Shown in pieces: positions 12,430 through 60,920 of a stretch of 64,000 bases of DNA. The stretch comes from Aplysia californica (Eukaryota). Each line of letters starts with the position of its first letter. The stretch's first letter is position 1. Where the stretch lies: assembly GCF_000002075.1 (NCBI RefSeq), contig NW_004797451.1:961679-1025678 (forward strand), read 5' to 3'. A model generated the notes under the pieces. The model did not search any database and had not been told where the DNA came from. It saw only the letters and a list, made by a program, of their open reading frames with translations. Position numbers and translations under genes: made by a program.

Positions 12430-15400
12430 AATAATAATAGTAGTAGGAGTCATTATAATAATGTAGATCATTCTTATAGCACCCACTCTCATATGAACAC
12501 AGCTCTGTGCACTTTACTCAATAAATGTTTTTTTTCTCCCCCAGATCTAAATCAAGACTCTGCTACGTTCGGAGGGCTGCCATTTTCTTACTTAGTGTTT
12601 GACGTAACTAACTCTAAAAATATCCTGGACGGCACAGTTGTACTCAGCTTCAGAACTCTGCTGACAGAGGCTTTGCTCATGTACGTGCACGACCACAAAG
12701 GGAACTTTGTGCAGCTGGAGCTCAGCGATGCCAAGACTGTCACTGTCAGCTACAGCAACTACAACCAGATAGTCAGGGACTCCGTCACCACGAATGGTAC
12801 ATTTTCTTACCTGGTTTTTTTTCCACTTCTTCTTTTTTACCTGTTTTTTTCCACTTCTTCTTTCTTAAGTTAACTGTTTTCTCTCTTAGCTTTATGCTTT
12901 TTTTTCCCCACTTAAGCTTTCTCATCTGTCTTTTTTTAAAATTCAAATTATGCCTTCTTTTCACTATTGTTTTTTCAATTATTCCCTCTTTTCATGTTTA
13001 ATCCATGTGTTGTCGGCAAGCTGTCAAGTACAACACTCGGCACATGGGTTACAAAAGGGTTAAGTATAGTGTTAAAAGTTATTGAGGTTCAAACCACCAT
13101 CCATTCATTCACTCTTCATCTCATCATGAGTGTAGATCTGATTTTTATTGATTTTATATTTTGTGATCTGGTGCTATAGTGAAATATCTTAAACTAGTAG
13201 ACAAGAAATTGGGTGATTTCCCCCCTTTAGCTGCCTTCCCGGTCATCTCTGGTTGCCTCATGCATCTCAAGACTAGGGAGTCTCGGAGTCTGAGTAAGTC
13301 TAAAATCTGGTGCTGTATTTTCAGTGCCGCTCAACGACGGTGAGTGGAAGCAGGTGGTGGCCGAGAACTACTACAACTTCACCCGTCTCATGGTGCTGGG
13401 GTCGTCGAAGGTCATAGAAGTACGACGGGGAAGGATACAAAGTTATTCTCTCGACCCGTACTATGGAAGCATATACCAACGTAAGATTGTTACACATACT
13501 ATCTCTTGACCATTGTCATGGAAGCATTTTAAAAAGTTATTAGTGTTGGCACTTACACTCTTAATAAAACTAAATTATCAGTGTAAGACAGTGGCTGTCT
13601 CTAACACTGTTTTGTGGAAGTATATATCAACAAAAGGTTGTCAAGCAACATCATGTTCCCTCTTTTCTGACTTATGATTGGTCTTAGCATACCTGCATCT
13701 GTGATAAGTAAGAGGCTTTTTAATTTTAATCAAGAATGAACACAAAGTTTTTGTCTGGACCCTTTATCCCGGAAGTTTATATTAAAGTAGGATTATGTAT
13801 TACATGAACTGCTTCTTCCAGTTTAGATTGGTGTTAGCTTTCCTCCTTCTGTGATAAGTAGTTAGCTTTTTGTTAAAACAGTTTCTGTTCGTTCAAATAA
13901 AGCCACATATCTAATGTATTCTCATTGCTGTTATCCCAAAATAGGTTGAGAAAAAAAGAAGTGTGTACAAAACGTAGCTTAAAATGTCTCTTAAAATATG
14001 TATTACATAGTTTGCATTGATTGTGATGCTTAGAGAAGTTTGATGAAGACTTGCAGGTTGAATACAAAGCTCTATGATATCATTGTTGCTTTTCAGCTGA
14101 TTGTATTTTCATTTTTATCGGTAGTTCTATAGCATGTCTCATTACCAATAGTCTTGTGTGATTTATACAACTCATTTTAATTGTTGATCCTACCACATTT
14201 TCTGTTGTTGCTATTGCTAATATATAGTCATTGTTGTAGTTGATAAAGGCAATGATCCGACACCTATTCAGATTTCTCTCTGCTGCTCAACGCCATGAAG
14301 TGAAATGTGTATGTTCCGCTGTTAATAGATCTGTCAGAAAAGCACTTTGCCCTTTACCCATGACTCGTCTCCATCTCCCACACTCATAGAGATGGTATTC
14401 ATCATATCTTTCCATCTCCTAACTCTACAAGGGGCACACCAAAAGTTTTTTCCCTGACCATGAAGGAATAAAGGTAGATAGCTGTGTAGTGGCCTCAAAC
14501 AGTTACACTTTTTTGCCATCGGTGTAAGACCTTGAAAATAGAAGACCCTCTCATTGTCAGAAAACCAGCCCTCTACCGCTTCTTTGACCTCATTATCACT
14601 TTCAAAATGCCTTCCTTTAAAATCCTTTTTCAGTTTGGGGAATAAAAAAAGTAGGATGGGGCTAAATCTGGAGAATAGGGTGGATATGGCAAAATTTCAT
14701 AGCCACATTCCCGCGCAGTTTTGGCAGCCTTTCTTGGAGTGTGTGCTGGCGCATTCCCGTGAAGCAGCAAAATGCTTTTTCGGATCTTTCCGGTGCATTT
14801 CCTCTGCGTTTTTCTTTAATAGCCTCTCATAATTTTTTTACCTGGTTAGAATAATGGTCTCCGGTGATCGTATGTCCATTTTCAAGATAAACTGTCATAA
14901 TCACTCCATTTTGGTCCCCCCAAAAATGATAGCATCACTTTTCTACTTGATGGCTGCACTTTTGCTTTCTTTGGTGTGGGAGATGAGGTGATTTCCACTG
15001 CATTGATGCAGATTTTGACTCTGGATCGAAGTGGTGGACCCATGTCTCATCCATGGTAAGAAGTCTTTTAAAAAAAATTAGTTTCATGTTGTTACTTGCC
15101 TTGCAAGAACAAAAACTTCATTACTGCCCTCTACTCAATTTTCTACATTTATATGTTGAAACTGGAGAACAACATACCCTTGTTCGCTTACTGTATGTTG
15201 GTGCTAAAACCTGAGATCGGAAATTTTCCAAAATTTACATGCAATCTAGGAAGATAATTTTTGGCTTTCACCTCAAATTTCAGCTTTCTACCTTTATTCC
15301 TTCATGGTCAGGTAAAAAACCTTTGGTATGCCCCTCGTAAAGGTTGCTCCATCTATCCACACTTAAACCCATTTACACTTGGTATCTTTACATCTCCTAG

Positions 15401-17447
15401 CACGAAAGCTTTCTCCGTTCATCCACGCTTATGTTCTTTACACACTTCATCTTTCCATCCCCCACAATCACAGAGACGGTTTTCATCGCACGACCAGCAC
15501 TGATGCCTGCTCCGTTCATTCATGCTTACATCGGAGGGGTCAAGGACGGTGCGTCTGCTACAGCACCGCTGGTCGGTTGTGTCAGGGGAATGAGGATCGG
15601 AGACTACGTCTTCCATCTCTCTCAGACGGCTGCGGAGTTGGGCAATGATACATGTACGTACTGTATGTTGTTATGACTGGAAGAAATATGTATAACTCTA
15701 TTTGGCTATGTGTGCGATAGACGATGGAATGGGTGGTTGATGGGTGCTCTGGTATTTTTTTGCTCCATCTTTCCTATCAAACATCTATCGTCATCATCTC
15801 TCCTCCGTCTTTTATTTGTGCTTTACTCTTTTGAAACACCTCTAATCTTCAGCACTTATATGATCTATTTGTGTTGCGAGTGCAGTAAAACTCTTACTAA
15901 AACCCCCCTAAAAATTTAACAAGATGTTGGAGTTACTCTTTGTCTTGTAACCATGATTTTGTAAAATCACTGGTCACCTCTAACCACCAACATGTTCCCT
16001 CCCTGTGTCCATGCAGTGGTCTCAGACAAGTGTGAGAAGGGCTGCGACGAGGACACCTGCCACAACAACGGCTTCTGCGAGGAGCGCTGGAGAGACGGAC
16101 AGTTCCATTGTGACTGTGCCGACAACGGATTCTCCGGACACAGATGTGAAATAGGTATACAATTTGTTGAACATTTTATGATGTAAGCATGATTTATTTC
16201 ATTTTTTAGGCAGACTCAGCTTCAGCTCTGCCAGTCAGATGATTAAAAACCAGTTGAAATTGTCAAAGACAGCGAGTGGGCGGTTGGCGGGTGCTCTGGT
16301 GTGGTTTGCTCCTTCTTTCCTATCAAACATCTATCATCTTTATCTCCCCTCCTTCTTTTTTGTGTTTGTTACTCCTTAGTAACATCTCTAATCTTCGGCA
16401 CTTATATGACCTTATTGTGTTGCAAGTGCCGTAAAACTCTTATGGAAAAAAAAGACAGCGACCCAATGTCAAGGAGAAAAGTGGCTGTCTTAGAAAGGTG
16501 GTATTGTGTGAGCACTGATCTCCTACCCAAGCTTGTGTGTTAAAGGTGAATGTGTAGAAATATCAATTAGTATGAGCATACAATATGGCATGTGCAGTCT
16601 ACATTGTGAAGCTGACCTACTGTTTATGTGCTTTCAAAGTTTCACACGTTTATCAACAGCAGTTGACTAGTTTTTATGATATTAATAATAATAGATAGTA
16701 AATAGCATTTACATAGTGCATACCCCCGCTCAACAGCAAGCTCTGTGTGCTTTACATTATATTATTACCCCAGCAGACCATAAAACACTCTGAAACATTC
16801 TCAGCTTCCCGGGAAGGATACAGTGCAAGCAGCTGATTAAGCGCCCAAAAACTAAAAAACTGACAAGATCTTTTGTTGTCTAAAGCTTGGTACCCATTCT
16901 CACGTGGGTGAAGTGAGGAAAATTCATGTAAAGTGCCTTTCCCAAGGACACAATGACGGGCCCCTGACAGGATTTTTGCCCATGACCTTACAGTGGTGAG
17001 TCCGAGAGCCTAACCACTAGGCCACCGACACCACCACTCGTTCATTTGAACATACAGTCGGACCTACTCTTATAGTCACCTGTCCAAGTGATTCATTTAT
17101 ACTGACGGCCACTTCCCACTTTCCTTCTTGCATTTTTTTCTTCTATAAAGACATTACCCTAGATGTTCTCATGTCTGAAAAAACACTTATCTCCTCCACA
17201 ATGGCTGGCTGTCTTGAACAATTTCAACTTTATGTGTTTTTTTCTCTGCGAGGTTAACCCACTGATTATTTACAATTTAAATGTCCTGCGCGTATTTGTA
17301 GCAGTTTTCTAAGTGATACACTCATACAGGTTGACACAATGATATATCAATTGTACATTGTGAGGCTGACAGTGTAAGCATTGAGTCACTGGAGAGTGGG
17401 TGCTATAGAAGTGATCGTTTTTATTATTATTATTATTTTTATTAATA

Positions 17448-17485
<38 letters not shown>

Positions 17486-20400
17486 ATAATCATACCATTT
17501 ATGTGCATTCAAAATTTCCAGTTCATATTAAAATGGCAATCGTGTGTTCTGATGTGGTCCTCTGTAGAGCCCTCGGTAGAAGTGTACGGCAATACGGTCG
17601 TGCGACACGCGTTTGTGCTGCCCGTGATGGACCAGTACAGCCTCAGCGAGAGCCTGACCTTCCGCTTCAAGGCCAACCCCATCTCGGAGGTCGCTGACCC
17701 TATGATCATGGCTTACATCACAAGCTCGCAGTGAGTGGCTCACATCAAGTGTTTTATAATACCTTAGAAGGAGACAAATAACATGATCACAGCTCATGTC
17801 CAGTGATTTATTATACCTTCGAAGGAGACAAATAACATGATCACAGCTCACATCAAGTGATTTATTATACCTTAGAAGGAGACGAATAATATGATTATAG
17901 CAGCATGCATAAAGTAAAAATGATCACAGCATAAATCACAAGCTCTCGGTAGAGTTGGCCAATTTTCTTACAATGGTTTGCCTGTTTTATTTTTTGAGAC
18001 TATTGAGAGACTTTGACTTTCCCCCCAGGTCCAAAGATTACATCATGGCAAGACTTGACCCTTCTGGGAGTGTGATGTTGGAGACAAACCAAGGAATCGG
18101 GATCTGTGAGTAACGCACTTTGTGTTTTTTGCCTTTCATTTAAGAAAGTAAACTACCGTATATCGCCATGAATAGGTTGTATGGATGGATAAGATGCAGG
18201 CACACTTGAGAGCAAAAACTTTTGTATAAATCAAATGTTCGTTGGATAAAATGCACCAACTTTTTCATGGCACTCACCATCACTATAGTGGATTTTTTAT
18301 TAATAACCACACTTCAAAACAAAACAAATTTAGGTTGTTGTTTTTTTATAACTTGTTTTTAGTCAGCCATCTTAACTCTAGATATACTACAGAGCAACAA
18401 GGAACAGCCATTTTGTTTTAAGGTGATGATGTCCAGATTTTGTGGCATCATTTGCGTTCATTGTTTGCAAATTGAGGAGATTTTTGTAAGTATACAATTA
18501 AAAAGGAAAAAGAAGAGACTGGGGAGTGAATGAAGCTCTACATGAATCACTGAAAATGTGTAAATAAGCTCCAAAAAAAGAACAAATACTAATGAGAAAA
18601 AAGTGTTACGTTTTGCCCATTTTCTTTTCTCAGATCGAATCAAAGTCACTGGCAAGTTTGCGGACGGAAAACCTCACGACTTTGTCTACATCCGGGAAGG
18701 TTCGAACATGTACCTTAAGGTCAGTTTATTAAACAACTGTTTTGCCCATCATAGACTTTTCCAATGTGAGGAAGGCTACTTCCACAACCGTTGATGTCCA
18801 AAAACTCATTTGCTGTAAATTTCTGTTTGAAGTGTGTCACTAATTTCTGAATTTTGTAAGCTTAATGTTGCTAATTTTATCATTTCTTAAGCTTAACGTT
18901 GCTAATTTCTTAAGTTTTTAAAGCTTAGCATTGCCATGTACAGGGCTTATCATGGGCCAACATACATTTTTCTTTAATTGATCAGTATTCCTGAATAATT
19001 TGCTTACATTCAGCTGAGATGTTTTTGTAATTGTGTCGAGAAACTTTCAGGTAATTCCTCCTGCTTCTTGTTGCTTTGGGACACATTTCACATTCCACCG
19101 TAGACTTGACTGTGTGTAAAGTTAGGATGGTAGAGTGTGCACAGAACATACAAGTATTTATTAAGTTGCATATTTATAAGTGAAGGAATGCAAGCCATAG
19201 AGCAATTTGCAAATTAAACTTTTTAGTTACTTTTCTAAAAATGCACAACTGCACCTTAGGAATCAAAATCGTGCATGGCATTATTTGCATGGCTTAGAGG
19301 TGGTGTGTTTGATAATGATGTAGAACTCACACATCCATTCTCTATTCCCTGAAAGTAAACACTGTGTCTCTCAGGAGTTGAGTTCTGTGTCGACGTATTG
19401 TGCATAGTGGCATGCTGTAACTCTGAGAACAATTCCGAATGATTCAAACTGAATTATATCTGTTGTAGAGACTGGTGCAAGTCCTCTTTTTTTACTGTAG
19501 TTTTTCCTGTGTGTCTCCACTCCCATTTCGTCGTGTCAGTCGAGAGCTTTCAGATTTTCAAACGTGCTCCAAAAACTGCAGAGATAGAATGTTTTATCAT
19601 TTACAATGTTTCAACCAAATACATTTATTTTAGAAGACTACTTGATGTGGTGTTTTTGCAGAGGCTGTACCTTTCCTGATGCAGCATTGTTTAAGCACTT
19701 TGTCTCCTTTGCCATAAATAGCAGTTCTGACAATCACATTGTAAGATTTTTAAATCACAGAAGTTTTTGGAGCATGAAAGTAGATGCTTTTTAGTGTCTT
19801 TTCAAGTAGAAACTGAAATTGACAGGGTTTAGGGATTAGAGACAGTAGACAGGCGGTGGGGGGGTGGTTAAATCTGTGTTGTGTCTAGTGTTCTATTACT
19901 CTCGAACAGCATGAATACAATGGAGGAGAAATACTTGAGTGTGGTGCACCCTCTCCAAGCAGAGCAGTTAGAGCCAGAATGGACAAAATTTCTCAGCATT
20001 TCAGCACGGGACGGTGTCGCAGAACGTTGCTCAAAGGAAAATCTCTTTGTTAGCTTTGTTATATTACTATGCTTCTGTGGGTATCTGATGAAGCATTGCG
20101 TGAAGGGAAGTTCCTTCTTTAGTTTTGTTTTATTGCTATGCTCCTGTGTGTGTGAAGGCAATGACTCATAGATGTGTCCCTGATGAGTTACCGAGTTCCT
20201 TCTCCGAGACCACCCGAGGGAAAACTTGTCTAACCTGTACTTTATCTTTGCATGCTGTCATTATGTCCATCAGGTGAAACCTCTAGATCCTTATGGAAAT
20301 GTGATAGTAAGTACATGTCATCATGATTGTCACGGTATTCATGCCAGCTTTTGGTCGCTTTGCTTTCAAATCTTCAGGCTGCTCATTTTTCAACTTCGTA

Positions 20401-23400
20401 TCTATTTAGCCATTTCCATATAGCTCTTTCCACATAGCCATTTCCATATAGCTCTTTCCACTTAGAGTCATTTCCATTTAGCTGTTTCCACTACACAGTT
20501 TTTTTACTTTTTTCTTGGCATTTCTAGAGTCCTTTTCACTACATTTTTTATACTGCTTTTAGCAAAACTATTTGTTATGGCTTTAGATTTTGGGGGTTTT
20601 AGTTTGATCCTTATGTTGTTCACTCAGTGAAAAAACTGTTAAAATTTGGGTAGAGATAAGATTGAGAAAATCACCAAAAGTTTGCATTTACAACTTCAGT
20701 AGGCCTATAGGAAATATTTACCTTTTTTTTTCAGTGCAGACACTTGCGCTTTTTTGAGGGCTGTTTTGTGTTCCAATTTTTGTTTCCTTCAATGTTCATA
20801 AGTGTGTCACAAATGACTGTTGTCAGTGACAATGCATGTGTTTATGCTCGTTTAAGTCAGTTAGAATCCTCTGTTAATGTCTGTATGAGTTGCTCATATT
20901 CATTATACTATAGTATCATGGGAACATGTAACTGACCATGCATCATTTGAGATAACAAATCAGATATTATGAGTAAGGAAAAACAGCCCACTAGGTGCAA
21001 TTCAGTCATTTATAAGATATTATCATATAATAAAAATTAATAAACAATTTTTAGTAAAGGCAGGGGGTGGGCATGGGGGTGGTAATCTGTTGTTGTAAAA
21101 TTGACTTTGTTCCTATGAAGAATCCTGCGTAGGGACAGGCTTAACTCAGTAGTTATAGGGTGAACTCCTGTGGAGATAGGTTTAAACCGAGTAATGATCC
21201 AATAGGTTTAACTCCATTAGCGATAGGTTTAACCCCAGTTTAACCCCAGTAGTGAGAGATTTAACCCCAGTAGTGATAGGTTTAACTCCTTTAGTAACAG
21301 GTTTAACTCCAGTTTAACCCCAGCAGTAATAGGTTTAACCCCAGTAGTGATAGGTTTAACTCCTTTAGTAACAAGTTTAACTCCAGTTTAACCCCAGCAG
21401 TAAAAGGTTTAACCCCAGTAGTGACATGTTTAACTTTATTTGTAAAAGTATTAACACCAATAGCTGTGGTTAGACATTTGCTTTTTTTGTCCTGGATCAG
21501 TTCGGCTCTACTTACGTTCAACTGACATGTTTTCGTGAGCTAAATACAGGACTGTATATAATATCCATGTAGTGCTACTAGGTCTATAACATTTTTTAAC
21601 AAAGGTGAAGACTTGAAGAAACACTTTGTCTTAATCAAGCCTAGAAGCTGTCTCACTCCTTTAACATAGTTTATAGATGCTGCATGGTTGAAGACATTTC
21701 TTCTTTTTCGCATAACTTCTGCGCTGTATTTGGTGGCCTCAAGACTATTCACAGGCCTGTACATTGTGTATTTAGAATGATGTGCGTACATCCACAGTAT
21801 GTATTATTGCACGTTGTAGCCCTATCAGTGAATCCTGTACCACAAGTCTCAATTGTGTCCCATTTTTTAAATTTTAAATCCAGTGCGATTGTAGTTCACT
21901 TTTTTCTCTTGAAGTCTGAAGTAAGGATATCTTAATTTTCATTGTCATTGGTTTAAGTCTTACATTAATAATTCTTACATTAATACTTCAAGAAAGATCA
22001 ATTACAGTTTTGATTTCAAATTGAATGTAATGTCATACCTAGAAGACTTTAAAACTTCTTTTAATAATTCCACCCCATCCACCCCCCTCCCCCGAAGAAA
22101 ACCTCAGAAAGGTTGTATAATAGCCAAAACATATGTGATTTATTTTTGACATTTTGAGAAACGATCCTTTATCTTTCCTGAAATATTTAATGCAAATTCT
22201 GTTGTTTAGGCTTTTGTACAGCCTTTTTCTAATGGTTTTGTAAAAATTTTGGGCATCTTGCAGCTTCAGTCGTGTATCCAATAATGTTCACTGTATCCAG
22301 GCAAGTTGAATTATAAGATTTTGTCAAGCTGAGTGGTGTTAGTTTTACAGTGATGACTGCTACTTGATAGTTCTACTTTAGTCAATTAGGGTAAGAGAGA
22401 GAACAGTCTGTAGTTAAAGAATGAAAGCCTTGTGATTGTCAGACAAAATTTGAAAATGTTTTAGAATAGTTAGCTCAGTAAAGTTTTTTAAATGACATAA
22501 TGGTCAAAGTTTAAACATGAGTCCTTAGATTAACTTGGAATTCTCCCATTGCAGTTGGAGAAAGCGTAGTGAAGCAAAATAAAACACTTCCATTCATCAT
22601 TTGTGCAACTGCTAATAAGAATTGGTTCAGAGGTATTTTGATTTGTTTTTAAGATTATGAAGTAAAGGGAACAAAGGAAAAAGAAGAGATGTCAGTTTTT
22701 GGATAATTTGAGTCGTGACATGTGTTTATGCACCTCTTCTGCCTAAAAGTTGATTAGTCGCCCAATATCAGTTGGGAAAACATGGGCTGTTAAGTATTTC
22801 ATTTTCATTTTTCTAGAAATATCTAATGGTCACATCCTTTATTCTTCCCTTGCGCCTTTCAAATGCTTTATGTTCACATTTAAGTAATTTGATCTTTTAA
22901 GGAGCAGGCTGCTTCAATTCAACATTCCTAATCAGGGGCAACCCGGGCTGTCTGATATACAACATCCCTGCAGACCAACTGAGATATTTGATCTGAAAAC
23001 TTCCCCACCTGGGAATCGAACCCATTTCCTTTTTGTGCAGTGGTGAAGAGCTTAACCATTAACTCCCAGAGACCGGTGTAGACTGGGTGCTCAATGTTTT
23101 GGCTTAGTCTCCATCATTGCAGACCAAGCCGCTGACTTTTTGGTTTGTGTTTGTCTCTGGCAGGTGGACCGGATCAAAGAAGCAGACATCAACTATCCGG
23201 ACTATCCCCTGAACAGCATCGACACAATCTACATCGGGGGATATGTACAAGATCACAACGATATTCAATACGTCTCAAACTTCTCTGGATGTATTTCAAG
23301 TAAGTTTTTTCACTTCAATATTATCTTTTCAGTGTGTTGTGTTTTAGCGCATATAAATGACTACTTGCACCGCATGCTTCCCAGGAAGTTGAGGTTGTTT

Positions 23401-25458
23401 CAGAATGCTCTCAGGTCTGCTGGGGTAATAATATAGATTTTGAAGCTCATAGAGCTTGCTGTTGAGAGGGGATTTGCGCTATACAAATGCTATTTATTAT
23501 TATTTTAATATTACACATTCTGAGTTGAAGCAGCCTCACCCCTAAATGATTTGAATTGTGTTGATGGGGGGGGGGGGAATTAAAACCATTTACACTTACA
23601 TTTTCAGGCTGGTATTGAGACTGAATGAGAGGTACTGTCCTCATATTCAGAAACTTGCTCTTAAAACATCTCAATGAAATGGTTCTTGTCATTCAGAGTG
23701 TTTTTGGAAGTTATTTTGGTATTCCCAAGAATTCTTTTTCAAAACAAAGAACAAATTTGTTCATAGGTCTTTCATAGGAAGCAAACTTAGGTGGGTGGTC
23801 ACCTGAACTATAAATCTTTATTGCCCAGATGCTGACACATCAGCTTGGTGTTTTACCAAACACACACACATACACACACGCACGCACGCACACACACACA
23901 CACACACACANNNNNNNNNNNNNNNNNNNNNNNNNNNNNNNNNNNNNNNNNNNNNNNNNNNNNNNNNNNNNNNNNNNNNNNNNNNNNNNNNNNNNNNNNN
24001 NNNNNNNNNNNNNNNNNNNNNNNNNNNNNNNNNNNNNNNNNNNNNNNNNNNNNNNNNNNNNNNCATATAATTAATTATTTTTTTTAATGAAACGGTTTTT
24101 CTTCTTTCTCCTGGAAAAAAAAAATATAGCTTTTGGTCTTATAGCATAAGAACATCCTGCTAACGCACTGTTTTTCGTTCCAATGTCAAAAATGACAAAA
24201 TACAAGATACTACAAAACAATAAAAGTAGTAACTTATAATAGTGTAAATGGACGAAAACAGGCAGGCTTGGGGAGTGAGAAAAGCGAGAAAAAAATCAAG
24301 AAGAATAGAATTCAATGTCAGACCAGATAATGTGAGGATAACAAAAGCATGAAATATATAGAAAGCAAAGTCACTGTATGGCGAAGAAAGTGAAGTTAAG
24401 AAAATTTTGAAAACGTTCGTCATTGCCATGTAAATCGTCGGTCAGGTGTTCTGACCGATACGTACTAAGACCAAAATTTGAAATTAAAATTTTTAGATTA
24501 ATTTTGCTGTTAAAATAACAACAGTTTTATCGGTTGCATATCCCTAAAAATATTTTGTCGAGGGTTAAAATCTAAATGAATTTAAAAAAGACATAATAAT
24601 ATAGGTAGGCCTACAATTATTAAAAAGCAATGAATAGTTTCTTTTTTTATCTTTCTATCTCTATTAAAAATGTTGCTTTTTGGGCTTAGCACATTTGAAC
24701 AGCATGCCAACGAAATATATATCATAAATTCTACCTTGAATAGTCCACGCAAGAGAAGAAATTGCGACCGTACAGTCTGCCCTCATCTCGCTGCTATACG
24801 GTTGATGAGTCTTCTCTACTTCAAGGTACGCACGTCTCAGCAGCTCACGGTGTATCTCTGTCTAACCACATAGGCACAGCTCGCTGGTTTTTGTTTTGCT
24901 TTCTGCGTGGGCTAACTACGAGTTACTTCGTGATGAATACTGAGACAGAAAGGTTTTTCTCTTTCATGTTTTTTTTTTTGTTTTAGAAAGAGCGTTATTG
25001 TTAGATTATGAGAAAGAATAAACAAGAAACGAAATTAGTCCAGTTCATTCTCCTCTAAAAATCGCTTTTACCTTTGAATATTTTTCGGCACAATTTTTCT
25101 CTCTCTCCATTGTTAACAGTCACAATTTGATTATAAACTTGTATTGTAATTGATTGTTGAGTAAACAATTTCTGCACACAGATTTCTCTAAAACAATCAG
25201 CTGTTCCCAAGAAGTCCGGTCTCGACACACGACACTTGAGTTCATGAACTTGAAAAATCTGGCGACACAGCCGCAGTAGCTGTCCCCGACGGACGTGGCC
25301 TCCGAGAGTGAGTGAGAGAGAGAGGGGGGAGAGAAGAAATCCGCCCTGTTCTGTGATGAAATACGTGTGTACAATAAATAAAGAACCGCGACACGGCGCT
25401 AAGTTCACGGAACGCCGTCACCGGGAGAAGAAGAACCGAGGAGAGATCGTCTGTCCTG

Positions 25459-25493
<35 letters not shown>

Positions 25494-28400
25494 CGTGTGT
25501 GTGTGTGTATCGTCTGCTAGCTGCTGCTGCTGCTGCTGTCGCCGTTGTGTACCGTACGGGAATGATTGGTTGGTTGGTTGGTTGGCTGTGTTGGCCGATC
25601 GTACGGGTCGGGAAAGACTAGACGACTCATTCATTCGGCGAACCGTCCGTGATTTTTTTCCCATGCGCACCAGGCCTCGCGTACCCTGCTCGACTGTCTG
25701 GTCTGACTGGGATCATAATTGCCTGGTGCGGTATGGTTGGGTGAAAGTGAAACAGATTAGAAAAAGGAGGCGCAGCACATACTGCGGTACAAATATTTAT
25801 TATCAATTAATTGTTATCTGTTCAGGAAATATCCGCTCTTGCTTGTTGTGTACGTTCTCGTAAGAGGACTCGAGTCTAGGGTAATCACGGAGGTTCGAGC
25901 AAATCGAAATCGATTTCATAGTCTGTGTTTTGTTTTTGCTGGGTAGATCTAGATCTAGATCTAGTTTTAAAAATTTAAAAATTATTATTATTATTATTAT
26001 TTTGATAACTCCGATTAGACACGGCGTTCAAGCCCAAAGACACGAGTGCCGTGACCTTGCACTCCCTGCGAGACCTGTACCTGGACGTGAAGAACATCGA
26101 CGTGCTCGGGGACGAGACTCAGAGCTGCAGCACCAGCGACACAGACAAGGCAGAACCGACTACGCCACCCATGAGTGAGAAAGTCACACCAGGGACCCAC
26201 ATGGTCAGTTATGTCACTTTGTGCGGTTTTGTCTTCTTCGATGTTGTTCGGATATCCCAGTGTCTCAAAAAGTCTTGTATCCATCAAAGAAAGAAGTAAA
26301 AGCGAAAAAAAGAAAAAGAGAAAGAAAGAAAGAAAAAAAGAAAGAAAGAAAGAAACAAGAAAGAAAAAACGAAAAAAAGAAAGAAATGGCACTTTATTAT
26401 TTCTTGTGGGGAAATTCGGGTTACAATGGCAAATATACATACATACATAAAAATACATATTTAAGCACATATGCTTACAAAGAATACCAAATACACAATA
26501 TTACACCAATGCAAACTATTTTACAATTATGCCATGCTGGTTGCCACTGTTCAGTTGTAGTTAAACAGTGTGGACTGTTAATCTTTTCATCTGATCCTTG
26601 TGTACTTAGCATGCTACTGAGAGTATCGCCAATTTTATAGCTTGTTGACCTCATTGCAGGACATCACAATGCCTCCGTGGCTGGACAGCGACATTGAGAT
26701 TGTGACCTTGGGTGCGGCTCCGAACCAGGGCAGCCCACCAACCACCCCATTGATCTTCACCAGCACCAAATCGGGCAAGAACAACACACACCTGGTGGTT
26801 CTACAGCCCAGCTCAGAGCCTGTTGATGACATCACAATCAGTGAGAACTTTGTTTATTTCGCGGGCTGTAAAAATAAGCGTAGAGGTTTTAATGTCCCTA
26901 TCAATACTATTAGGTTATTTAAGAGGTGGTACCTCCGAGTCTAGCATCCATCTCCGAAAGGACCGAGCCAAATGGGAAATGGGTGTAAAGTGTCTTTCCC
27001 AAGGACACAATGTCGTACTGACCTGGGGCTGCTTTGACCTTCCTTATCAGGGGCAACCTAGGCTGAGTGGGGTAGCCTACAACATCCCAGCAGACAGATG
27101 GAGTCACTTGATAATATAACTTCCCCACTTCTGAATTGAATCCCATTTGAGCAAGATATTCCATCAGAATGTTCAAACTTTGTTTTTGCCTGTAGGCTTT
27201 TAACTCTTTGAGGAAGCTCATTCTTGTCTTTCAGCAACACTTAAGATGCATTGTTTTGGAGCATTTTTTAAAAAACAAATTGTTAAATTTGATTTTTGTA
27301 AATCTTAAACTTGAAAAGGCAAACTACAACACACATTTTGTAAAACATGCGAATTTGTGCCTCTGATTTGTGTAATACAGATCAAAATGTGCCACAACAT
27401 GGCCTTTGGGCTCTGTCAGACATAAGTTATGTGTTCGATACACCCTGAAAGATTCAGCCTCCTCGTAATGTCCCCACTTTTCAAGCTAAGACGGAGCACA
27501 CACCAGGAAAAAGTGTTGGGCTAGGTTTTCTCTTTTCATGTTTTTTTTTTGTTTTAGAAAGAGTTTTACAGTCCTTACAACACTAATAAGTCATATAAGT
27601 GCTGAAGATTAAAGGTATTACTAGAGAATAACTTACAAAAAAAAGAAGAGATAAGGATAATAGATGAGCAAACCGTAACAGAGCACCTTCCAACCACCCA
27701 AAGACTTGAAAAGTGTTAAAAGTGGGGAAACACTATTTTTAATGAATGCAGCCTTATTGTTTCTATCTCCATCCCCAGTCATTGTGGTGTGCGTGATTGC
27801 AGCCATCTTGATCATCAGTTTGTGCGTTGCTCTGGTCCTTGTGCGGCGTCGGAAGAAGCGACAAGGAGACTACCTGGTCAAGAAGGAAGGCGAGGCCGAC
27901 ATGGAGCTGAAGCAACCTCTGAACCACAACGACTCGTCTCCGTATGGCGGGCCAGCCCCGTTCACATCCCACACCATGCCTCGCATGTCTCGCCCCCGCC
28001 CGCCGGCGGAGACAAACAACAAGGTTCCGTCAGATCATCTGGCCAAGCTGGATGAGTTCAGCATGATCTCCGCCATGCTGGGTCCCAGGAGTAAGACTCT
28101 CTTTTTTTTTCTATACCATCAAACTTGCTTTAATGGACATTTATAAGACAATTACCTGTACAAACAGACATTTAGGGGGCTCTTGTGGCCTAGAGATTAA
28201 GGTGTTCGCCTCTCATTCAAAAGGTTTGAATCCGGGTAGCAATGGGAAAATTTTCTTATCTGAAATTGTCTCCTTTCACCTTCTTTCCTTCTCTCTTGCA
28301 ATACTCTGTCGTCTGCTTTTGTCTCCAGTTTCTGCCCCCACCCCTACAACTCCTTTGCCCCCTACGCTGGACTCCTGACTCTTTCTGCAGCCTTTCTACT

Positions 28401-31400
28401 GCTACACCTTGGCTCCTTCTTACTGCTGTCTTTCAGCAACACCCCTGATCTTCTGGTAGGAAAGATCTACACCTAGCCTTCTTGGACAAGGGCGAAAAAT
28501 CTCAGAGGTCCTGTGTGCAAGTTGCGCACGCTTAAGATCCCTTGGTGGTCCAAAATGGATAAGAGTAGGCTTCAGCCGCCACCCGAGCAAAATTCAAAAT
28601 TTCCTACCAATTGAAAATGTTTGGTGTGTCCCGCACGCTCATATGACCTTATGCAGTTGCGAGCGTCATAAAATTTTTTTTTTTTAAACCACAAAAAAAA
28701 TAGCCATTTCCTGCTTCCTCCCTTGCGTATTTCTAACATCATAATGACACTGTGTAAGACGTCCACCTGCCTGGGACTACCACTTTTCTTCTTGCTTTAG
28801 ATCATTTTTATTGTATCTTTTTATGTTATGGAATTCTAATCTTCTTCTTCTCATTCTTCAGACCAATTATAGTTTTGATTTCAAATTGACTGTCATACCT
28901 ATGAGACTAAACTGTCCTGGTCTTTTCCTGTCACCCATCTCGTCGAGATCTCTTAGGAAGTTATTTTCCGTCTATCTCTGCCTCTTTTTCATCTTATTAT
29001 GTTGAATAATTATAAAAATGTTATAACTCAATTTACACTTGTTTACATACATAGCTATGTACATAAATACATACTTGCAATAATTTTTCAACATTACACA
29101 GTTCACAATATTACACCATCAAAGACAAACAAAATCGAATTTTCCGGTCATATTTGTCCAGCACCTGTTTTTGAGCAAGGAATTATAAACTATGAACTCT
29201 CTGAACATGTAGATTTCAATGAAAAAATTCTGTGCTTGTTTCTCCTAAACTTTGCCTGAATGTTTTCAGGGCCTAAGGCAGACACTTTGCCCCACGACCC
29301 GTCTAAGCAGAGATACAGCCAGGGAAATTATGTGAGTGCCATGACAAGTTAATGATTTTTGCCTTACTGCCTGAAACTAGGCGCTTCACATGTAAAGGGT
29401 TAGGTGACAAAATGGGGTATCTCCAACTCTTTATCTTCTGTTTTTCTCACTGTAGATCATTTGATTTTTTAATCTTATCTGAGTTTAAATATTTGTTTTC
29501 AAAACATGCTGTAATCAATGATTTTGCATCTCCGACTCTTTATCTTCTGTTTTTCTCCCTGTAAATCACAAGTTTGATTTTTAATCTTATCTGAGTTTAA
29601 ATATTTTTTTTTCAAAACATGCTGAGACCATTGATTTTGTACAGCTTTGATTCAGTGTTTTCTCCATCGGCAAACGGATCAAACACACTGAGTGAAACGA
29701 TCAGCTCGTCCTGTGTTGGTCACTTTGTGGACATAATATGTCTTCTCTTGTCACAATACCTTTAATTCATATCTTTCTTTATGTCTCTTAATCTGTTTAG
29801 AGTAAAGTGTTTAAGAGATCAGAAAATCAGAAAATACTACAACAGATTTTCCATGCTAAAGTAGATCTTTTTCTGTTTGTGTTGAAGTAAATGGAATTAA
29901 TGCCACATTATTATTTTTTTTAATATGAAAAATAAAGCGATAATGAATGAAAAGGTCGTCATATGAAAATTTGATGTGACTAAAGTATTACATAGTTACA
30001 CAAGCCAGTAAAGACTAGTCCATCAGGAGTTGGAATTAGGCCTGCTCTTACTGACAAGGAAAACCAAAAAAAGACATATGTGAGACATATTGCATGTCTT
30101 AACTTGTTCGGGACATGCAGTCTGGTCATTCGATTTTGTCACTTTTTAAAGGTATTTTGTATATTTCAAAGAATACGCAACCATCAAAATAATTCCTAAT
30201 AAAATGCATAGAAGACAAATAAATTAAAATCCTTTTGAGTTAAGGTTCAGACATGATGGAACTATTGTCTTTTTATAGGAAAGCATTTTGTTTGAAAACA
30301 TTTTCTTTCCATTTTCAAAATGTAGCTTGAAACAATGTAAGCGGACTTTTTATCCACTTCTCCAGACACACACACACACACACATATTTTCATCTTTGTT
30401 TCCCTCTCCTAGCCTCTGACGGATGATGAGGTCGACTTTATCAATCCCATCTACAACGCAAGAAAACAACGACCGGCTTCCTCCATATCAGAGGTCTTGG
30501 AAGAACTGGAGAGACGGCAAGTGCCACTTCCTAACGGTAAAACGTCAAGATCTGATTTATCTAAACTTTCTTATGTTGGCAGGAAAATGGTAAAAGATAT
30601 CAGTGCAGCTGGTTTCTGTTTACTTTCTCAGGCTAATAGGAAAGTGGTAAAACATTATTGGCAGTTTGGAAAAGTAATAAGAAATAAGGAGACTTGTGGG
30701 CTGCAGTTTGATCTATAGGCAATCCCAAAATAAATGGTAAATATTTCACCTAAAGGACTTCATCAGAAACTTAATAACACATGCTTTAGCCAAATCAGGT
30801 TCTGAAGTATACCTTTCCTGCCAAATCCTTAGAAAAAAACACTTTACACAAATTTTAAGTATTTCACCCTGGTAAGATTGGGTAACTGACTAAAAACTAT
30901 GAAAGATCTTTTCTGTACGTTCATCTTGGAGCATTTGTTAACCCTGTAACATCACAGTTTGTGTCAAGTGCTTTTCAAGATTATTTGAGAACATTTATAG
31001 ATCTGCCAGGGTAATAGTAGGCCTACACTGTTCAGTGCATAAAGCATGTTTACTCTCAGCAGGCATATATGTTAATTAANNNNNNNNNNNNNNNNNNNNN
31101 NNNNNNNNNNNNNNNNNNNNNNNNNNNNNNNNNNNNNNNNNNNNNNNNNNNNNNNNNNNNNNNNNNNNNNNNNNNNNNNNNNNNNNNNNNNNNNNNNNNN
31201 NNNNNNNNNNNNNNNNNNNNNNNNNNNNNNNNNNNNNNNNNNNNNNNNNNNNNNNNNNNNNNNNNNNNNNNNNNNNNNNNNNNNNNNNNNNNNNNNNNNN
31301 NNNNNNNNNNNNNNNNNNNNNNNNNNNNNNNNNNNNNNNNNNNNNNNNNNNNNNNNNATTGTTATTATTTTATTTATTATTGTTATTATAATTTTTTTAA

Positions 31401-34400
31401 AATATTATTGTTATTATTATTTTATCATCATCATTATTATTGTTATTATTGTTATTATTATTATTATTATTATTGTTTTAATTTATGATTATGATGTAAG
31501 ATGGTAACTAAACTGAAGAGCACCATCTCGTTTTTGCCAGGTACCCCAGCCCTAGAGGATCCGGTCCGGCGCAGCCACGGCGAGGGAGAGCTGGAGTGGG
31601 ACCACCAGGCAGACACCACCACGCCCGCACACAATGTGAGACTTCTCTCTCACTCCGCATCACTGGGTCTTTGTTGTTTTCTGCACACCTGTCTAGTCAT
31701 GTACATTTGATTTTCTGTGTTTGCGATGCAGTCTAAACTTTTTTGAGGGTGTCTTGTAAAAGAATTGAAGGCAAAAAGCTAGAGATAGGGGTAGCTCAAG
31801 AGTAGGTTAAATAAGGAATGAGGACAGATGAGCGACAGAAAAAAAACCCAACCCTGAATGATATAGGGGATGTGTTTTATAAAATATCTGACCAGAGAAA
31901 TGAATATTGAACCATGGTTGCCAATGTTTGAATTTATTGATCTCCATGAAGAGAAATTTCCTGAGGCATGGTAAAAACATACACAAAAATCAGTGTTTCA
32001 TCTGTCTAGAGATTGTCTGAACTGTGAATCGTGGGAGCACCAATGAATACCCTGTCTTTTGATCTTATCCTTGGAGAAAACACTCTGATATCCGTCTGAT
32101 CAGAATTTGTGAACGCGGGGATGAATATGTAACCTCTTGTATGTGCAGGCCAGTGTATAACTCTGAGAATAATCACTCTTTTGTGCAGGGAGTTGCTCCT
32201 GTGGAAAAGCAACAAGGATGATTTTGGCGCAGCGTGGGGCAGAGGGTCAGTTATTGGAAGGTGGAAAGCTACCATCTATTCAAGCAGGATCTCTTCCTTG
32301 CTCGCTTTTCTCACTAAGACCTTAAATTTTTGCTCTTGTTGAGTTGAGATGCATCTCGGGGTCTTTCCCGCTTATTCCATCATTCAGTTGCAAACCAATT
32401 TCCCTGCTTCGACCTGGACTAATTTGAGACTGCGAATGTTGACTCTGTTGAGGATCAGCGAGCGCGCTGTTCGGCCATGATGTGATTTGATTTGCCTTGA
32501 CGTCTTTAGGAACAATGTGGCAAAGAAAAAATGGTGCTGCTGCATGAGATTCTTTATCATAAACTGACAGCTTAGCTGATTATTTTCTGATAATAGCATA
32601 GCATAAAAGAAATACTTTTATTTATTCCTGTTGGGGGTGTATAAAATACAAACTTTAATAGTTTTTCAATGTTACGTATGACACAATACCCCATAAGTAC
32701 AGACAATCAACATATTATTTGTTCCATTCTTAGATCAAATGAGGTTCTTTTTAGACTGTTTTGGATGCATGACCACTTTGTTTTGACCTCTTTGCTTTCA
32801 ATGTGCTTTGCTGCAGATGTTTAAGACTTTCGTTTTTATCAGTGCAAAAATTGGGTCATACACTTTTATTTGCTGCAAAACCATTATCATTACTTGGTGA
32901 TTTTCTGTGTACTACTTTTGAACTACTTTTCATAACAGATGAATAATTATTTAAATTCTAAGCTGCTTTTAAAAAAAATTCAAATTCAAGCAGAATTTAC
33001 TTAGTGGCGTGGGCAGTTTTGTTTTCACTATAATTACACCAACAGCTTTTGCGGGTCAAATCATATCTCAGTATCTGTTTGCTTTTATTCTTCTTCGCAA
33101 ATATGCATTTGTCTTGAAGTCTTTGTCTTATTTGATGGTCATCCAACTTATGCTTGATGTTTACTCAGTTTGAGACACATGCTGAATATCTTTAAAAAAT
33201 GTTACTCTCTGATTTGGTTTTCACACCAATATCAACAAGTTTTATTTGTTTTCACACCTGTATGATCAAATTATATATTCTTACGAAAGAGACGGGCGAC
33301 ACATTTGAAAGATGGTTGTGGTCTTTTTTATTTTTATTGTTGTTGTTTTTTTATTTATACAATTATTTTTTTAACAGTTGCTTATTTAAGTTGTTTTTCT
33401 GTTATGTTAATCACCATCATCCCATCAGGAACCATGGGTTTGAGTGGAGCTGCGGTCAAAGTCTGAATATTGATCCCTGACTTTGTCCTAAAGCAACTCT
33501 AGTAAGGAAGTTTCTTTGACAAATGAATCACTCAACTTCTCTCACTGTAGGAAGACATCATGTTTTTCAATAAACCTTTGCTGGGCCCAATTCCTGATGA
33601 ACTAGAAGAGTCCCATCTCAGCAGTTTCTCGGGCCACCCGTCAAGTTTTGGGGGTGACAGCTACCAGGTTTGTGCTGAGTGTAACTGTCCCTAGGATCCT
33701 CACCCTACTAGACTTGTTTGTGGTTCCGACTGAATGCTGTGTCTTCCACGCACCATGCGGTGTTCAGCTTATGGTGCATAGGCTGCTGTGTAGCACTAGC
33801 TCCTTATCATTAGTGATGTACCTCGTTTTAGGAGATTAAATTTCAATTGTACCGAGTAATGAAGCATGAGAAGTTACCGTCTGAAAGAAGTGAGGAGTCC
33901 ACGGGAAAAACGTGAATAGTCACAAACTGAAAATTGTGAGTGTATCAATCTTGAATGCTTGTTGACTCATAACAGTATTTCCATTCAACTGTTGATTGAT
34001 TATTGTCGTTAGATTTCCCATTCAACAAACAATAATTAACCACCAATCAAACAAATATGAAGTTATGAGTCCACAAGCATTAAAAATTGACACCCTCACA
34101 AATTCCAGTTTCTGAATATGCTCGTTTTTCCTGTGGACTCCTCAAGTGGGAGTAAGTCTCTATTATAACAAGATCCTTGTCTAGAATTAAAGAATTAAAT
34201 GCTAGTAAATGTTTAGAGTGCTGCGGAAATCAGAGTGGAGAAAATATACAGTTGAACTTGCTCTAACGGCAACCTGTTCAACACAGTCACCCGTACCAGT
34301 GATCTCTTCCTATTTACCCTCTCACGTTTTTTTACATTATAATGGCCCTGTCCAAAACGTTCACCTATCTATGACATCCAATTTTCTCTTGGACAATTGA

Positions 34401-42193: not shown

Positions 42194-42489
42194 GTGCCTC
42201 TATGTTATATTGTATATTCTGTTTGTAATGAAATGTCCTTCAGTATGGAATCAAGAAGTTGAAATATTACTCTATGACATATAACTTAACACTTACAAAA
42301 CTTAACTTAACTCAGTGAAGTATAGGCACAATGCTGACAGTTGGCAAACAGGATGGGAGTGCAGAGAGGAGAAGTAGAATTGTCAAAATTGGAAATGTGT
42401 TTACATCTCTATCAACACACTTTATATCATTTAGCAGTTAGACTGCTTCAATCCTGAGTGGGATGTACTCATCATCCTGGCAGAAAGAC

Positions 42490-42740
42490 GGAGATACCCA
42501 ATAAAATACTATCCCATGTGGGAATTGAGATGGAGATACCCAATAAAATACTAGCCCAAGTGGGAATTGAGATGGAGATACCCAATAAAATACTATCCCA
42601 TGTGGGAATTGAGATGGAGATACCCAATAAAATACTATCCCATGTGGGAATTGAGATGGAGATACCCAATAAAATACTATCCCATGTGGGAATTGAGATG
42701 GAGATACCCAATAAAATACTAGCCCAAGTGGGAATTGAAC
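42490..42740 (+). repeat. 42-bp minisatellite x6 inside a family-C SINE
   Basis: GGAGATACCCAATAAAATACTA(T/G)CCCA(T/A)GTGGGAATTGA; variant order A-B-A-A-A-B. Confidence 0.92.
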
Positions 42741-59075: not shown

Positions 59076-59132
<57 letters not shown>

Positions 59133-60128: not shown

Positions 60129-60920
60129 TTATGGAATTCTTTTGCAAGAGAAAAACTGTGCATCTATAATGTTATGGTCCGTTCCGATACTTTCAACTTT
60201 CACCAAGAACAACTACAACTTACACACTGACCGGAATGCCGGAGAGTGGGGACCTGAGGTTACTCTCAGGTTACTGGATTTGTTTGTGTGGAACAAAGTT
60301 CATGCCCTCTCAACCGGGCACGGTGCTCTGGTTGCAAGTGTATCCTTATAATAATTATGACGAATGCGGAGATGAGAATGATGAGGTCTTGGTTGCTTTT
60401 GTATCAAATATCTGTCCAAAAAATTCTGGACGAGATCGTAATATCAGTGTAAGCCATAAAGTGATAGTAAGCCAAAAATATATTTAATTTCAGAAAGCAC
60501 AAGTTGACAGATGTCCCAGTATCTTGCACGTACCTGCGGCGGGCAGCCCCTTCTGTGATTCAAAAATTAAAATATACTCAGAGGGCACCCTGTCCAGTGG
60601 AAACTGAGTAAAAAGCATGAATCATGAAAAGATGATACCAGTAGGCTTTTATCGATATTGAACAAAAGTGTTTTATTTATCAATAAGATATGACACAAAA
60701 TCATAAAAATAATTTGACCTTCCCACATCAGTGTGTGCCACAAAACATAGAATTCTGTGGTATGTATTTAATTTGAGATACACCGCAATGAACCGGAAAC
60801 TTTCATAGTCGGCAGTAAACAAACGAAAAGAAAGTGGAAGTCAGATGATGTCTGTGTTATAATAAAAGCTGTTCTATCCTCTCAACTTCCATTGTTATTT
60901 TCGACTGCGAATCTCATGTA
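60129..60920. promoter_or_regulatory. Bidirectional promoter region between gene 2 and gene 3
   Basis: Divergent ATGs ~790 bp apart, raised CpG, ETS-like CCGGAA at 60231 and 60793; a GC-box lies in gene 3 intron 1. Confidence 0.65.

What the first reader, a model, noticed from the sequence alone, without database searches (positions are those of the whole stretch)
24100..26260. CpG-rich intronic island just upstream of the stalk/TM exons: candidate internal promoter for a gamma-neurexin-like short isoform
Seen: CpG is clearly more frequent here (core 25200-25750) than in the other introns, and I found no TIRs or TSD to explain it as a transposon. It has promoter/5'UTR texture: CCGCCC, (GA)n, (GT)n, (CTG)n, TCATTC twice, and a donor GCG|gtatgg ~290 bp before exon 26019. 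Established: invertebrate gene bodies tend to be methylated and CpG-depleted while promoters are not, and neurexin genes make beta and gamma isoforms from internal promoters, with gamma lacking all LNS domains. Inference: a transcript starting here would encode only stalk, TM and the ~300-aa tail. Caveat: the start codon is unresolved. ATG25663 is out of frame after splicing and would form a uORF ending in ATGAGTGA over in-frame ATG26171. ATG25562 is in frame but meets TAG at 25619.
Basis: partly seen in the sequence, partly recalled or inferred. Interest (0 to 1): 0.7.

Follow-up and report, generated by a model that had tools for sequence, protein, structure and literature searches.

The report
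Candidate internal promoter in Aplysia axotactin
A 2.3-kb patch inside a sea-hare axotactin-like cell-adhesion gene keeps its CpG dinucleotides while the gene's other introns have lost most of theirs; it likely marks an internal promoter predicted to make a short membrane-anchored form without the adhesion domains, as related vertebrate and worm genes do.

Summary
The CpG island is real. Bases 24064-26018 hold 85 CpG against 27.6 expected (o/e 1.15); the 29 other introns pool at 0.37, none above 0.57. It extends across native exon 26019-26203 and is not a repeat in this window. The host is not a neurexin: it is the Aplysia californica axotactin-like gene (XP_035825667.1; six LamG, fibrinogen-like domain, ~305-aa tail). 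The cited promoter motifs are mostly chance-level and the 25730 donor is weak. Best reading (0.5): a likely germline-unmethylated internal promoter whose predicted product starts at ATG26669 (MPPW; Met kept in 18 of 18 full-length orthologs), a 385-aa membrane protein without signal peptide or LamG. It would resemble short CNTNAP2 more than gamma-neurexin. For: a similar CpG rise upstream of the neighbouring gene; four Physella RefSeq models starting at MPPW. Against: no transcript data; no short isoform listed for chromosome-scale mollusc assemblies; fragmented assemblies also give short models; in annelids few unmethylated regions are promoters. Verdict: plausible new member of a known kind; interest 0.35.

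The parts
24064..26420 (.). CpG-retaining island (inferred germline-unmethylated region) covering the 3' part of intron 23300-26018, exon 26019-26203 and the first ~220 nt of the next intron; left edge falls at the assembly gap
   Evidence: o/e 1.0-1.5 in all five non-coding sub-blocks against 0.37 background; segmentation 23883-26418
25200..25750 (+). GC-rich core (GC 0.55), likely promoter and non-coding first exon(s)
   Evidence: 43 CpG vs 14.8 expected; promoter role inferred
25305..25313 (+). Best-scoring splice donor in the island, AGA|gtgagt (exon would end at 25307); candidate only
   Evidence: PWM 8.6; 3 of 1598 background GTs as high; 0.22 expected by chance in 2 kb
25674..25730 (+).
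   Evidence: Acceptor 8.0 (36 of 1563 background), donor 2.6 (377 of 1598)
23911..24063 (.). Assembly gap (153 N) at the 5' edge of the island, after a (CA)n run
23164..23299 (+). Exon encoding LamG6 up to FSGCIS (first Cys)
   Evidence: Exact peptide mapping of XP_035825667.1
26019..26203 (+). Exon encoding the end of LamG6 (residues 1524-1560, second Cys) and the start of the stalk; holds in-frame ATG26171 and ATG26201; weak acceptor
26660..26840 (+). Stalk exon; ATG26669 (Met1589 of TMPPW, context acaATGc) is the predicted start of the short form; conserved sequon Asn1626
   Evidence: Met in 18 of 18 full-length orthologs and 29 of 30 stalk sequences; Asn in 27 of 30; Physella models start here
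27779..28090 (+). Transmembrane exon with basic stop-transfer RRRKKR and start of the tail
29270..36560 (+). Five tail exons (29270-29331, 30413-30536, 31541-31635, 33551-33667, 36285-36560) ending in GTSV-stop
423..36560 (+). Host gene: 31 exons of the Aplysia californica axotactin-like gene, residues ~428-1973 of XP_035825667.1; 5' part lies outside the window
   Evidence: 100% match of the TM exon; the spliced exons reproduce the protein

Best explanation
The island is a CpG-retaining patch inside the CpG-depleted body of the Aplysia axotactin-like gene, and it likely acts as an internal promoter whose predicted transcript encodes a LamG-free membrane isoform that would start at ATG26669. 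Steps. (1) SHOWN: CpG o/e is about 1.1 over 2.3 kb against 0.37 in the other introns, spanning a native exon. (2) INFERRED from mollusc methylome data: the patch has stayed unmethylated in the germ line while the rest of the gene body is methylated. (3) INFERRED: the usual cause of such a hole in a methylated, transcribed gene is bound chromatin at a start site; transcription would begin in or near the GC-rich core 25200-25750, with non-coding first exon(s) joined to exon 26019 or 26660. (4) PREDICTED: with no signal-peptide exon, translation from the first in-frame ATG (26171, 26201 or, best conserved, 26669) gives 399, 389 or 385 aa. The 385-aa form has a 54-residue outer stalk with one conserved sequon, one transmembrane helix (net charge -3 outside, +7 inside, which favours N-out insertion without a cleaved signal) and the full ~305-aa tail ending in GTSV. 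(5) PREDICTED role: a tail-only scaffold or competitor that puts the conserved cytoplasmic motifs on the membrane without extracellular adhesion, as short CNTNAP2 and gamma-neurexin are thought to do.
For: CpG excess p 1.6e-18, unique among 30 introns. Both flanks of native exon 26019 are CpG-rich: 11 vs 2.7 upstream, 6 vs 2.1 downstream, which a single insertion would not give. Not repeat-derived in the window: 38 of 2367 bases, and dispersed repeats inside this gene have o/e 0.46. Internal control: o/e climbs from 0.39 in the first coding exon of the neighbouring carboxyl-transferase gene to 0.97 at 61251-61600 upstream of it, then drops to 0.36. Met1589 is kept in 18 of 18 full-length orthologs, one of only 2 of 49 Met columns so kept, in a stalk of mean identity 0.29; AlphaFold2 does not pack it on LamG6 (pLDDT <50 for model residues 253-326). 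Four Physella acuta RefSeq accessions (387, 387, 347, 300 aa) start at this Met, and two of them give the same protein, so they differ outside the coding region. Elysia marginata and Argonauta models also break at these exons. Precedent: short CNTNAP2-203 of 108 aa, CAGE-detected short Cntnap2 start, NRXN1 gamma and worm gamma.
Against: No transcript, CAGE, ATAC or bisulfite data could be reached. No short C-terminal isoform appears in the clusters for Biomphalaria (8 members), Haliotis (12), Patella (10), Babylonia (7 and 3), Littorina (6), Liolophura (4), Ylistrum (3) or Potamilus/Sinanodonta (4). The Physella models sit on a 237-kb contig and no Physella N-terminal part was found, so an assembly break can explain them. 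A Saccostrea model on a 72-kb contig shows the same kind of artefact at another point, and most truncated models start elsewhere in the gene. Pro1590 and Trp1592 are as invariant as the Met (30 of 30), and one sequence has Phe for Met, so protein-level constraint explains the motif too. Promoter motifs and splice sites are at chance level. Up to four upstream ATGs lie in the core, and AATAAA occurs twice, overlapping, at 25373-25382 on the sense strand. In two annelids only 7.71% and 14.08% of unmethylated regions overlap promoters. A repeat-like element at 58581-59340 also has o/e 0.93.
Confidence: 0.5

Rival explanations
1. The patch is an unmethylated regulatory region that makes no short coding mRNA: an intronic enhancer, or a promoter for an antisense or non-coding RNA.
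For: Same CpG signal. Most unmethylated regions in spiralian methylomes are not at annotated promoters. No short isoform in chromosome-scale mollusc annotations. No convincing donor or Inr. No Rfam or Pfam match in the island.
Against: A GC-rich core about 300-800 nt upstream of the exon where LamG ends, and a near-invariant Met just downstream, fit a coding product. GC skew is positive on the sense strand from 25264 to 26063 (0.12-0.31), a weak hint of sense direction.
Confidence: 0.27
2. The patch is one or more young or unmethylated mobile-element insertions that have not yet lost CpG.
For: Repeat-like segments elsewhere in the window reach o/e 0.85-1.1 (47793-48258, 48040-48225, 58581-59340). 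The left edge coincides with a gap. A 38-nt piece of a dispersed family lies at 24955-24992. Only 64 kb of the genome could be searched.
Against: CpG retention continues to the native acceptor and past the native donor of exon 26019. No terminal inverted repeats and no transposase-like domain in seven island ORFs. Repeats within this gene body are depleted (0.46).
Confidence: 0.15
3. The patch is a neutral methylation gap or an assembly effect (wrong gap size, foreign or haplotype sequence) with no function.
For: The scaffold has nine gaps in 64 kb, and o/e jumps from 0.27 to 1.18 across the gap.
Against: The island is gap-free and continuous with exons 26019-30536. The reading frame joins correctly across the gap. 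Chance alone is excluded. No plasmid match.
Confidence: 0.08

Closest known systems
CNTNAP2-203 / short Caspr2 isoform (human 108 aa, PMC13152795; mouse short Cntnap2 start site by CAGE, given as 190 aa with the last LamG, PMC5470264)
   Same: Same side of the superfamily (fibrinogen-like domain in the host). 3' transcript of a few exons. The human product is a C-terminal part of the long protein (residues 1224-1332) with short ectodomain, TM and whole tail.
   Different: Host has six LamG, four EGF-like units, no discoidin and a ~305-aa tail; predicted product 385-399 aa. CNTNAP2-203 has RNA and protein evidence; this has none.
Neurexin-1 gamma (mammals) and C. elegans NRX-1 gamma
   Same: Internal promoter giving an isoform with no LNS domain that keeps stalk, TM and tail.
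   Different: Host is a classical neurexin there. Nrxn1 gamma has a unique N-terminus, an endogenous signal peptide and a Cys-loop; the predicted Aplysia form has none of these as tested.
Axotactin (arthropod axo; mollusc RefSeq 'axotactin' and 'axotactin-like')
   Same: Orthologs carry this name in Biomphalaria, Haliotis, Patella, Babylonia, Littorina, Liolophura and Ylistrum. Colinear match to a Kunitz-bearing crab protein, 406 bits over residues 621-1524, against 125 bits for the best stretch to an insect neurexin 1.
   Different: No Kunitz domain in the Aplysia protein; the mollusc tail motifs do not align to the crab tail. That Kunitz domains typify fly axotactin is recalled. None of the 16 listed papers for 'axotactin' concerns isoforms by title or abstract start (listing only).
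Unmethylated regions in mosaic invertebrate methylomes
   Same: CpG o/e near 1 inside depleted DNA; CpG o/e tracks methylation in Mytilus.
   Different: Here the hole lies inside one gene body; methylation was not measured.

Membership tests
gamma-neurexin | Host gene is a classical neurexin, (LamG-EGF-LamG)x3 without a fibrinogen domain | tested here: not met
   Fibrinogen-like segment at 4773-4998 (Pfam E 0.017; motif in P0001 and the crab protein, absent in insect neurexin 1); ortholog names; definition
gamma-neurexin | Own internal promoter with demonstrated transcript start | not testable with these tools
   No RNA, CAGE or chromatin data; only composition
gamma-neurexin | Product lacks all LNS/LamG domains | tested here: met
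   All in-frame ATGs (26171, 26201, 26669) lie after Cys1560, the end of the folded LamG6; holds for the predicted product only
gamma-neurexin | Unique N-terminal sequence with signal peptide | tested here: not met
   All ATG-to-donor single first exons in 24064-26018 and 26204-26659 in frame with either downstream exon were listed; none has an N-terminal hydrophobic core, the only hydrophobic runs being (GT)n-coded Cys-Val or late in the peptide. Two-exon coding leaders and non-ATG starts were not enumerated.
gamma-neurexin | Cys-loop in the stalk | tested here: not met
   No Cys between residue 1561 and the TM; feature
gamma-neurexin | Short cytoplasmic tail with PDZ-binding end | tested here: not met
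   Tail ~305 aa; it ends GTSV (GTEV/GTAV in heterobranchs, not kept in other molluscs). Reading T-x-V as a class I PDZ ligand is recalled.
CNTNAP/Caspr | Fibrinogen-like domain between LamG-EGF units | tested here: met
   (below the Pfam cut-off; supported by motif)
CNTNAP/Caspr | N-terminal discoidin, four LamG and two EGF | tested here: not met
   Six Laminin_G_2 stretches, no discoidin; four EGF-like Cys patterns; definition
CNTNAP/Caspr | Short tail with band 4.1 motif | tested here: inconclusive
   Weak Syndecan-domain match over the TM region, E 0.0033; tail is long
Axotactin-like (mollusc orthologs) | Full-length orthology to proteins named axotactin, six LamG with fibrinogen-like domain | tested here: met
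   45% identity over residues 50-1958 to Patella axotactin; colinear with the crab Kunitz protein. No tree with fly axo and Nrx-IV was built.
Axotactin-like (mollusc orthologs) | Kunitz domains (recalled for arthropod axotactin) | tested here: not met
   None in P0001, two in crab P0068
Germline-unmethylated island | CpG o/e near 1 within depleted flanks | tested here: met
Germline-unmethylated island | Measured absence of 5mC, open chromatin | not testable with these tools
   No methylome or ATAC access
Transposon insertion | Terminal repeats, transposase or RT remnants, copies nearby | tested here: not met
   (window only)
Transposon insertion | Many copies genome-wide | not testable with these tools
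   No eukaryotic genome collection is offered

The most novel reading that the evidence does not exclude
Axotactin, a third branch of the neurexin superfamily, makes its own ectodomain-less isoform from an internal promoter across molluscs. It starts at a Met conserved from gastropods to bivalves, chitons and a cephalopod, enters the membrane without a signal peptide and carries a 300-residue tail. Tail-only isoforms from internal promoters would then be a recurring design in neurexin, Caspr and axotactin genes alike, testable at single Aplysia synapses.
Probability: 0.22. Interest if true: 0.6.

Novelty: new member of a known kind. Interest (0 to 1): 0.35.

Why it matters
If real, knock-down, antibody and expression work on this gene in Aplysia neurons must separate two products with one tail, as was missed for Cntnap2, where the exon-1 knockout leaves the short form (passages). 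It would extend the internal-promoter, tail-only design to a barely studied branch of the superfamily. It also shows that CpG o/e holes inside methylated mollusc gene bodies can flag unannotated start sites. It does not point to a new mechanism.

Tried and rejected
Rfam scan of 23300-26700: one chance match, E 0.8. Pfam on seven island ORFs of both strands: no family. Plasmid blastn of the island: no match. Synonymous CpG use in exon 26019 is not higher than in other exons (12 of 19 vs 187 of 376, p 0.35), so the exon adds no evidence. Core-promoter motif counts were at chance level except post-hoc TCATTC and overlapping AATAAA. A signal-peptide first exon was searched for and not found. Identical-length oyster proteins from sequence-archive contigs start in the exon before (residue 1497); I read them as contig breaks near the alternatively used micro-exon, not as evidence of a promoter, and they span the 23299^26019-equivalent junction. 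No Aplysia short protein was found among 25 hits of the shorter-length search, but the only Aplysia entry seen at all is the one RefSeq protein, so absence is uninformative. The 57-nt stretch 25674-25730 is open in frame with the long protein but would split a LamG strand; rejected as a coding cassette. One donor coordinate was wrong and a few exon ends were off by 1-2 nt; corrected without changing any conclusion. No complex prediction, ESM Atlas or GTDB scan was run: none bears on a eukaryotic promoter. Kurshan 2018 was not held. No paper giving the Physella assembly contiguity was read (listing only).
Full report
Host gene. The transmembrane exon matches XP_035825667.1, 'contactin-associated protein-like 2' of Aplysia californica (1973 aa), at 100%. 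Thirty-one exons from 423 to 36560 map to it and, joined, reproduce residues 429-1973. The protein has six Laminin_G_2 stretches, no discoidin and no Kunitz domain, four EGF-like Cys patterns and a fibrinogen-like segment, one TM helix and a ~305-aa tail ending GTSV. Orthologs are named axotactin or axotactin-like in seven mollusc genera. The ectodomain aligns colinearly with a Kunitz-bearing crab protein (406 bits) and much less with an insect neurexin 1 (best stretch 125 bits). A fibrinogen domain marks the Caspr side of the superfamily (PMC10084454, passages; PMC12414531, first quarter of the text). So the gene is not a neurexin, and the gamma label is an analogy only.

The observation. CpG o/e is 0.52 for the window and 0.37 for the 29 other introns pooled (27,623 bases; highest 0.57). 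Intron 23300-26018 has 0.94, and its part 3' of the gap, 24064-26018, has 1.15: 85 CpG against 27.6 expected, p 1.6e-18. GpC o/e is unchanged (1.04), so the effect is specific to CpG. With (GT)n and (CA)n masked, five successive non-coding blocks from 24064 to 26430 give 1.01, 1.01, 1.08, 1.50 and 1.07; the next block gives 0.16. The island therefore spans the native exon 26019-26203. Its left edge is an assembly gap. Only 38 of 2367 bases match repeats elsewhere in the window, dispersed repeats within this gene have o/e 0.46, and no terminal inverted repeat was found.

What did not hold. GC box and Inr counts are at chance level, and (GT)n and (GA)n runs are common in the window. The 25730 donor scores 2.6 on a matrix from the gene's 30 donors; 377 of 1598 background GTs do as well. 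The best donor is at 25307, but 0.22 such sites are expected by chance in 2 kb. A path 25307^25674-25730^26019 would remove ATG25356, 25562 and 25663 from the leader; this is speculation, since acceptors as good as 25674 occur 1.4 times per kb. Exon 26019 encodes the last strands, a helix and the second Cys of LamG6 at pLDDT 86-93 (the model matches neurexin LNS structures), not stalk only.

Meaning of the CpG signal. Gastropods have mosaic, gene-body methylation (PMC11050768 and PMC8549274, passages), and CpG o/e falls with methylation in Mytilus (bioRxiv 10.1101/2025.08.27.672726, passages). I infer a long-standing germline-unmethylated patch in a methylated gene. The window gives one control: the second-ranked segment (58683-61572) covers the 5' end of a carboxyl-transferase gene; o/e rises from 0.39 in its first coding exon to 0.97 at 61251-61600 and drops to 0.36 beyond. 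The same segment includes a repeat-like element with o/e 0.93, so both gene 5' ends and repeats can keep CpG here. In two annelids only 7.71% and 14.08% of unmethylated regions overlap promoters (PMC11292947, passages); those counts include large unmethylated domains, but they warn against equating island and promoter.

The predicted product. In-frame ATGs at 26171, 26201 and 26669 give 399, 389 and 385 aa. Met1575 and Met1585 are kept in 0 and 3 of 18 full-length orthologs; Met1589 is kept in 18 of 18, one of two fully kept among 49 Met columns, in a stalk of mean identity 0.29. In a 30-sequence stalk alignment that I chose to span molluscs it is Met in 29 and Phe in 1; Pro1590 and Trp1592 are 30 of 30 and the sequon Asn1626 is 27 of 30. 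The context is acaATGc, with A at -3. The fold model leaves the motif unpacked. The invariant Pro and Trp show that protein-level constraint could be enough. No single coding first exon with a signal-like core exists. Flanking charge of -3 and +7 around the TM fits N-out insertion without a cleaved signal (positive-inside rule, recalled).

Annotation in other species. Physella acuta RefSeq LOC131935760 has four accessions, all starting at MPPW, two with the same protein. The contig is 237 kb and no Physella N-terminal part turned up among proteins of 30-1084 aa scored on residues 1515-1973 or of 873-2779 aa scored on the last two LamG domains; each search scored only 7999 candidates. An assembly break is thus a fair explanation. 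Elysia marginata is split on one contig, with the second model starting in the 26019-equivalent exon, and a partial Argonauta model starts three residues before MPPW. But of 22 shorter models placed, most start elsewhere (for example at residues 219, 287, 427, 494, 505, 696, 1070), and a Saccostrea RefSeq model on a 72-kb contig is a short form starting one exon earlier. No short C-terminal isoform is listed in the clusters of Biomphalaria, Haliotis, Patella, Babylonia, Littorina, Liolophura, Ylistrum or Potamilus. Automatic annotation often omits nested 5'-shortened isoforms (my own knowledge), so this is moderate evidence against.

Comparison with known systems. It would work like human CNTNAP2-203, a 108-aa C-terminal part of CASPR2 with TM and tail (PMC13152795, passages); a short mouse Cntnap2 start site was seen by CAGE, there described as 190 aa with the last LamG (PMC5470264, passages). 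It would also work like Nrxn1 gamma and worm NRX-1 gamma (PMC7480106, PMC10689797, passages), but it fails membership on host gene, signal peptide, Cys-loop and tail length. A search for 'axotactin' found 18 papers, 16 listed, none on isoforms by title or abstract start; a search for Aplysia with neurexin listed 15 of 120 papers, and passages of one review concern the classical Aplysia neurexin. I did not find this island or isoform described, but the library lacks most subscription journals.

Verdict. Observation partly confirmed, interpretation partly supported. Internal promoter with short membrane isoform 0.50; enhancer or non-coding promoter 0.27; mobile element 0.15; neutral or assembly effect 0.08. 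New member of a known kind. Interest 0.35; 0.6 if the isoform proves conserved across molluscs (probability about 0.22).

Noticed in passing
window 50437-60128, minus strand: Carboxyl-transferase gene resembling methylcrotonoyl-CoA carboxylase beta, convergent with the axotactin-like gene; long first coding exon 59496-60128 whose first ~120 codons precede the matched region.
   Followed up: partly
window 60129-61600: CpG o/e rises to about 1.0 at 61251-61600 and drops sharply after 61600; likely promoter of the carboxyl-transferase gene, possibly bidirectional.
   Followed up: partly
window 58581-59340: Element with an internal inverted repeat (58692-58765 / 59187-59260, 89%) around a (CA)n run, CpG o/e 0.93, single copy in the window; possibly a non-autonomous transposon.
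   Followed up: partly
window 20274-20306: 33-nt micro-exon in LamG6 ([11 protein letters not shown] region) present in some ortholog isoforms and absent in others; resembles the splice inserts of neurexin LNS domains.
   Followed up: no
window 26000-26018: The acceptor of exon 26019 is the weakest of the real acceptors not touched by a gap (leave-one-out score -1.1); it follows a (TTA)n run.
   Followed up: partly
window 27779-36560: The long tail holds mollusc-wide motifs ([35 protein letters not shown]) with no Pfam family of their own and no match outside this family among 30 hits. Shorter-tail splice forms exist in Biomphalaria and Haliotis.
   Followed up: partly
window 51167-52114: Third-ranked CpG-retaining segment (o/e 0.74), in an intron of the carboxyl-transferase gene, with no repeat match in the window.
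   Followed up: no
window 15729-15903, 16272-16442, 27526-27701, 45027-45186, 45937-46091, 47674-47792, 48435-48580, 49853-50030: Dispersed ~170-nt repeat family with at least eight copies; other families and several minisatellites (11767-12106, 21202-21435, 42486-42738) also occur.
   Followed up: no
protein hits P0006/P0008 and P0063/P0064: Bradybaena and Babylonia each have two copies of the axotactin-like gene on different chromosome-scale contigs.
   Followed up: no
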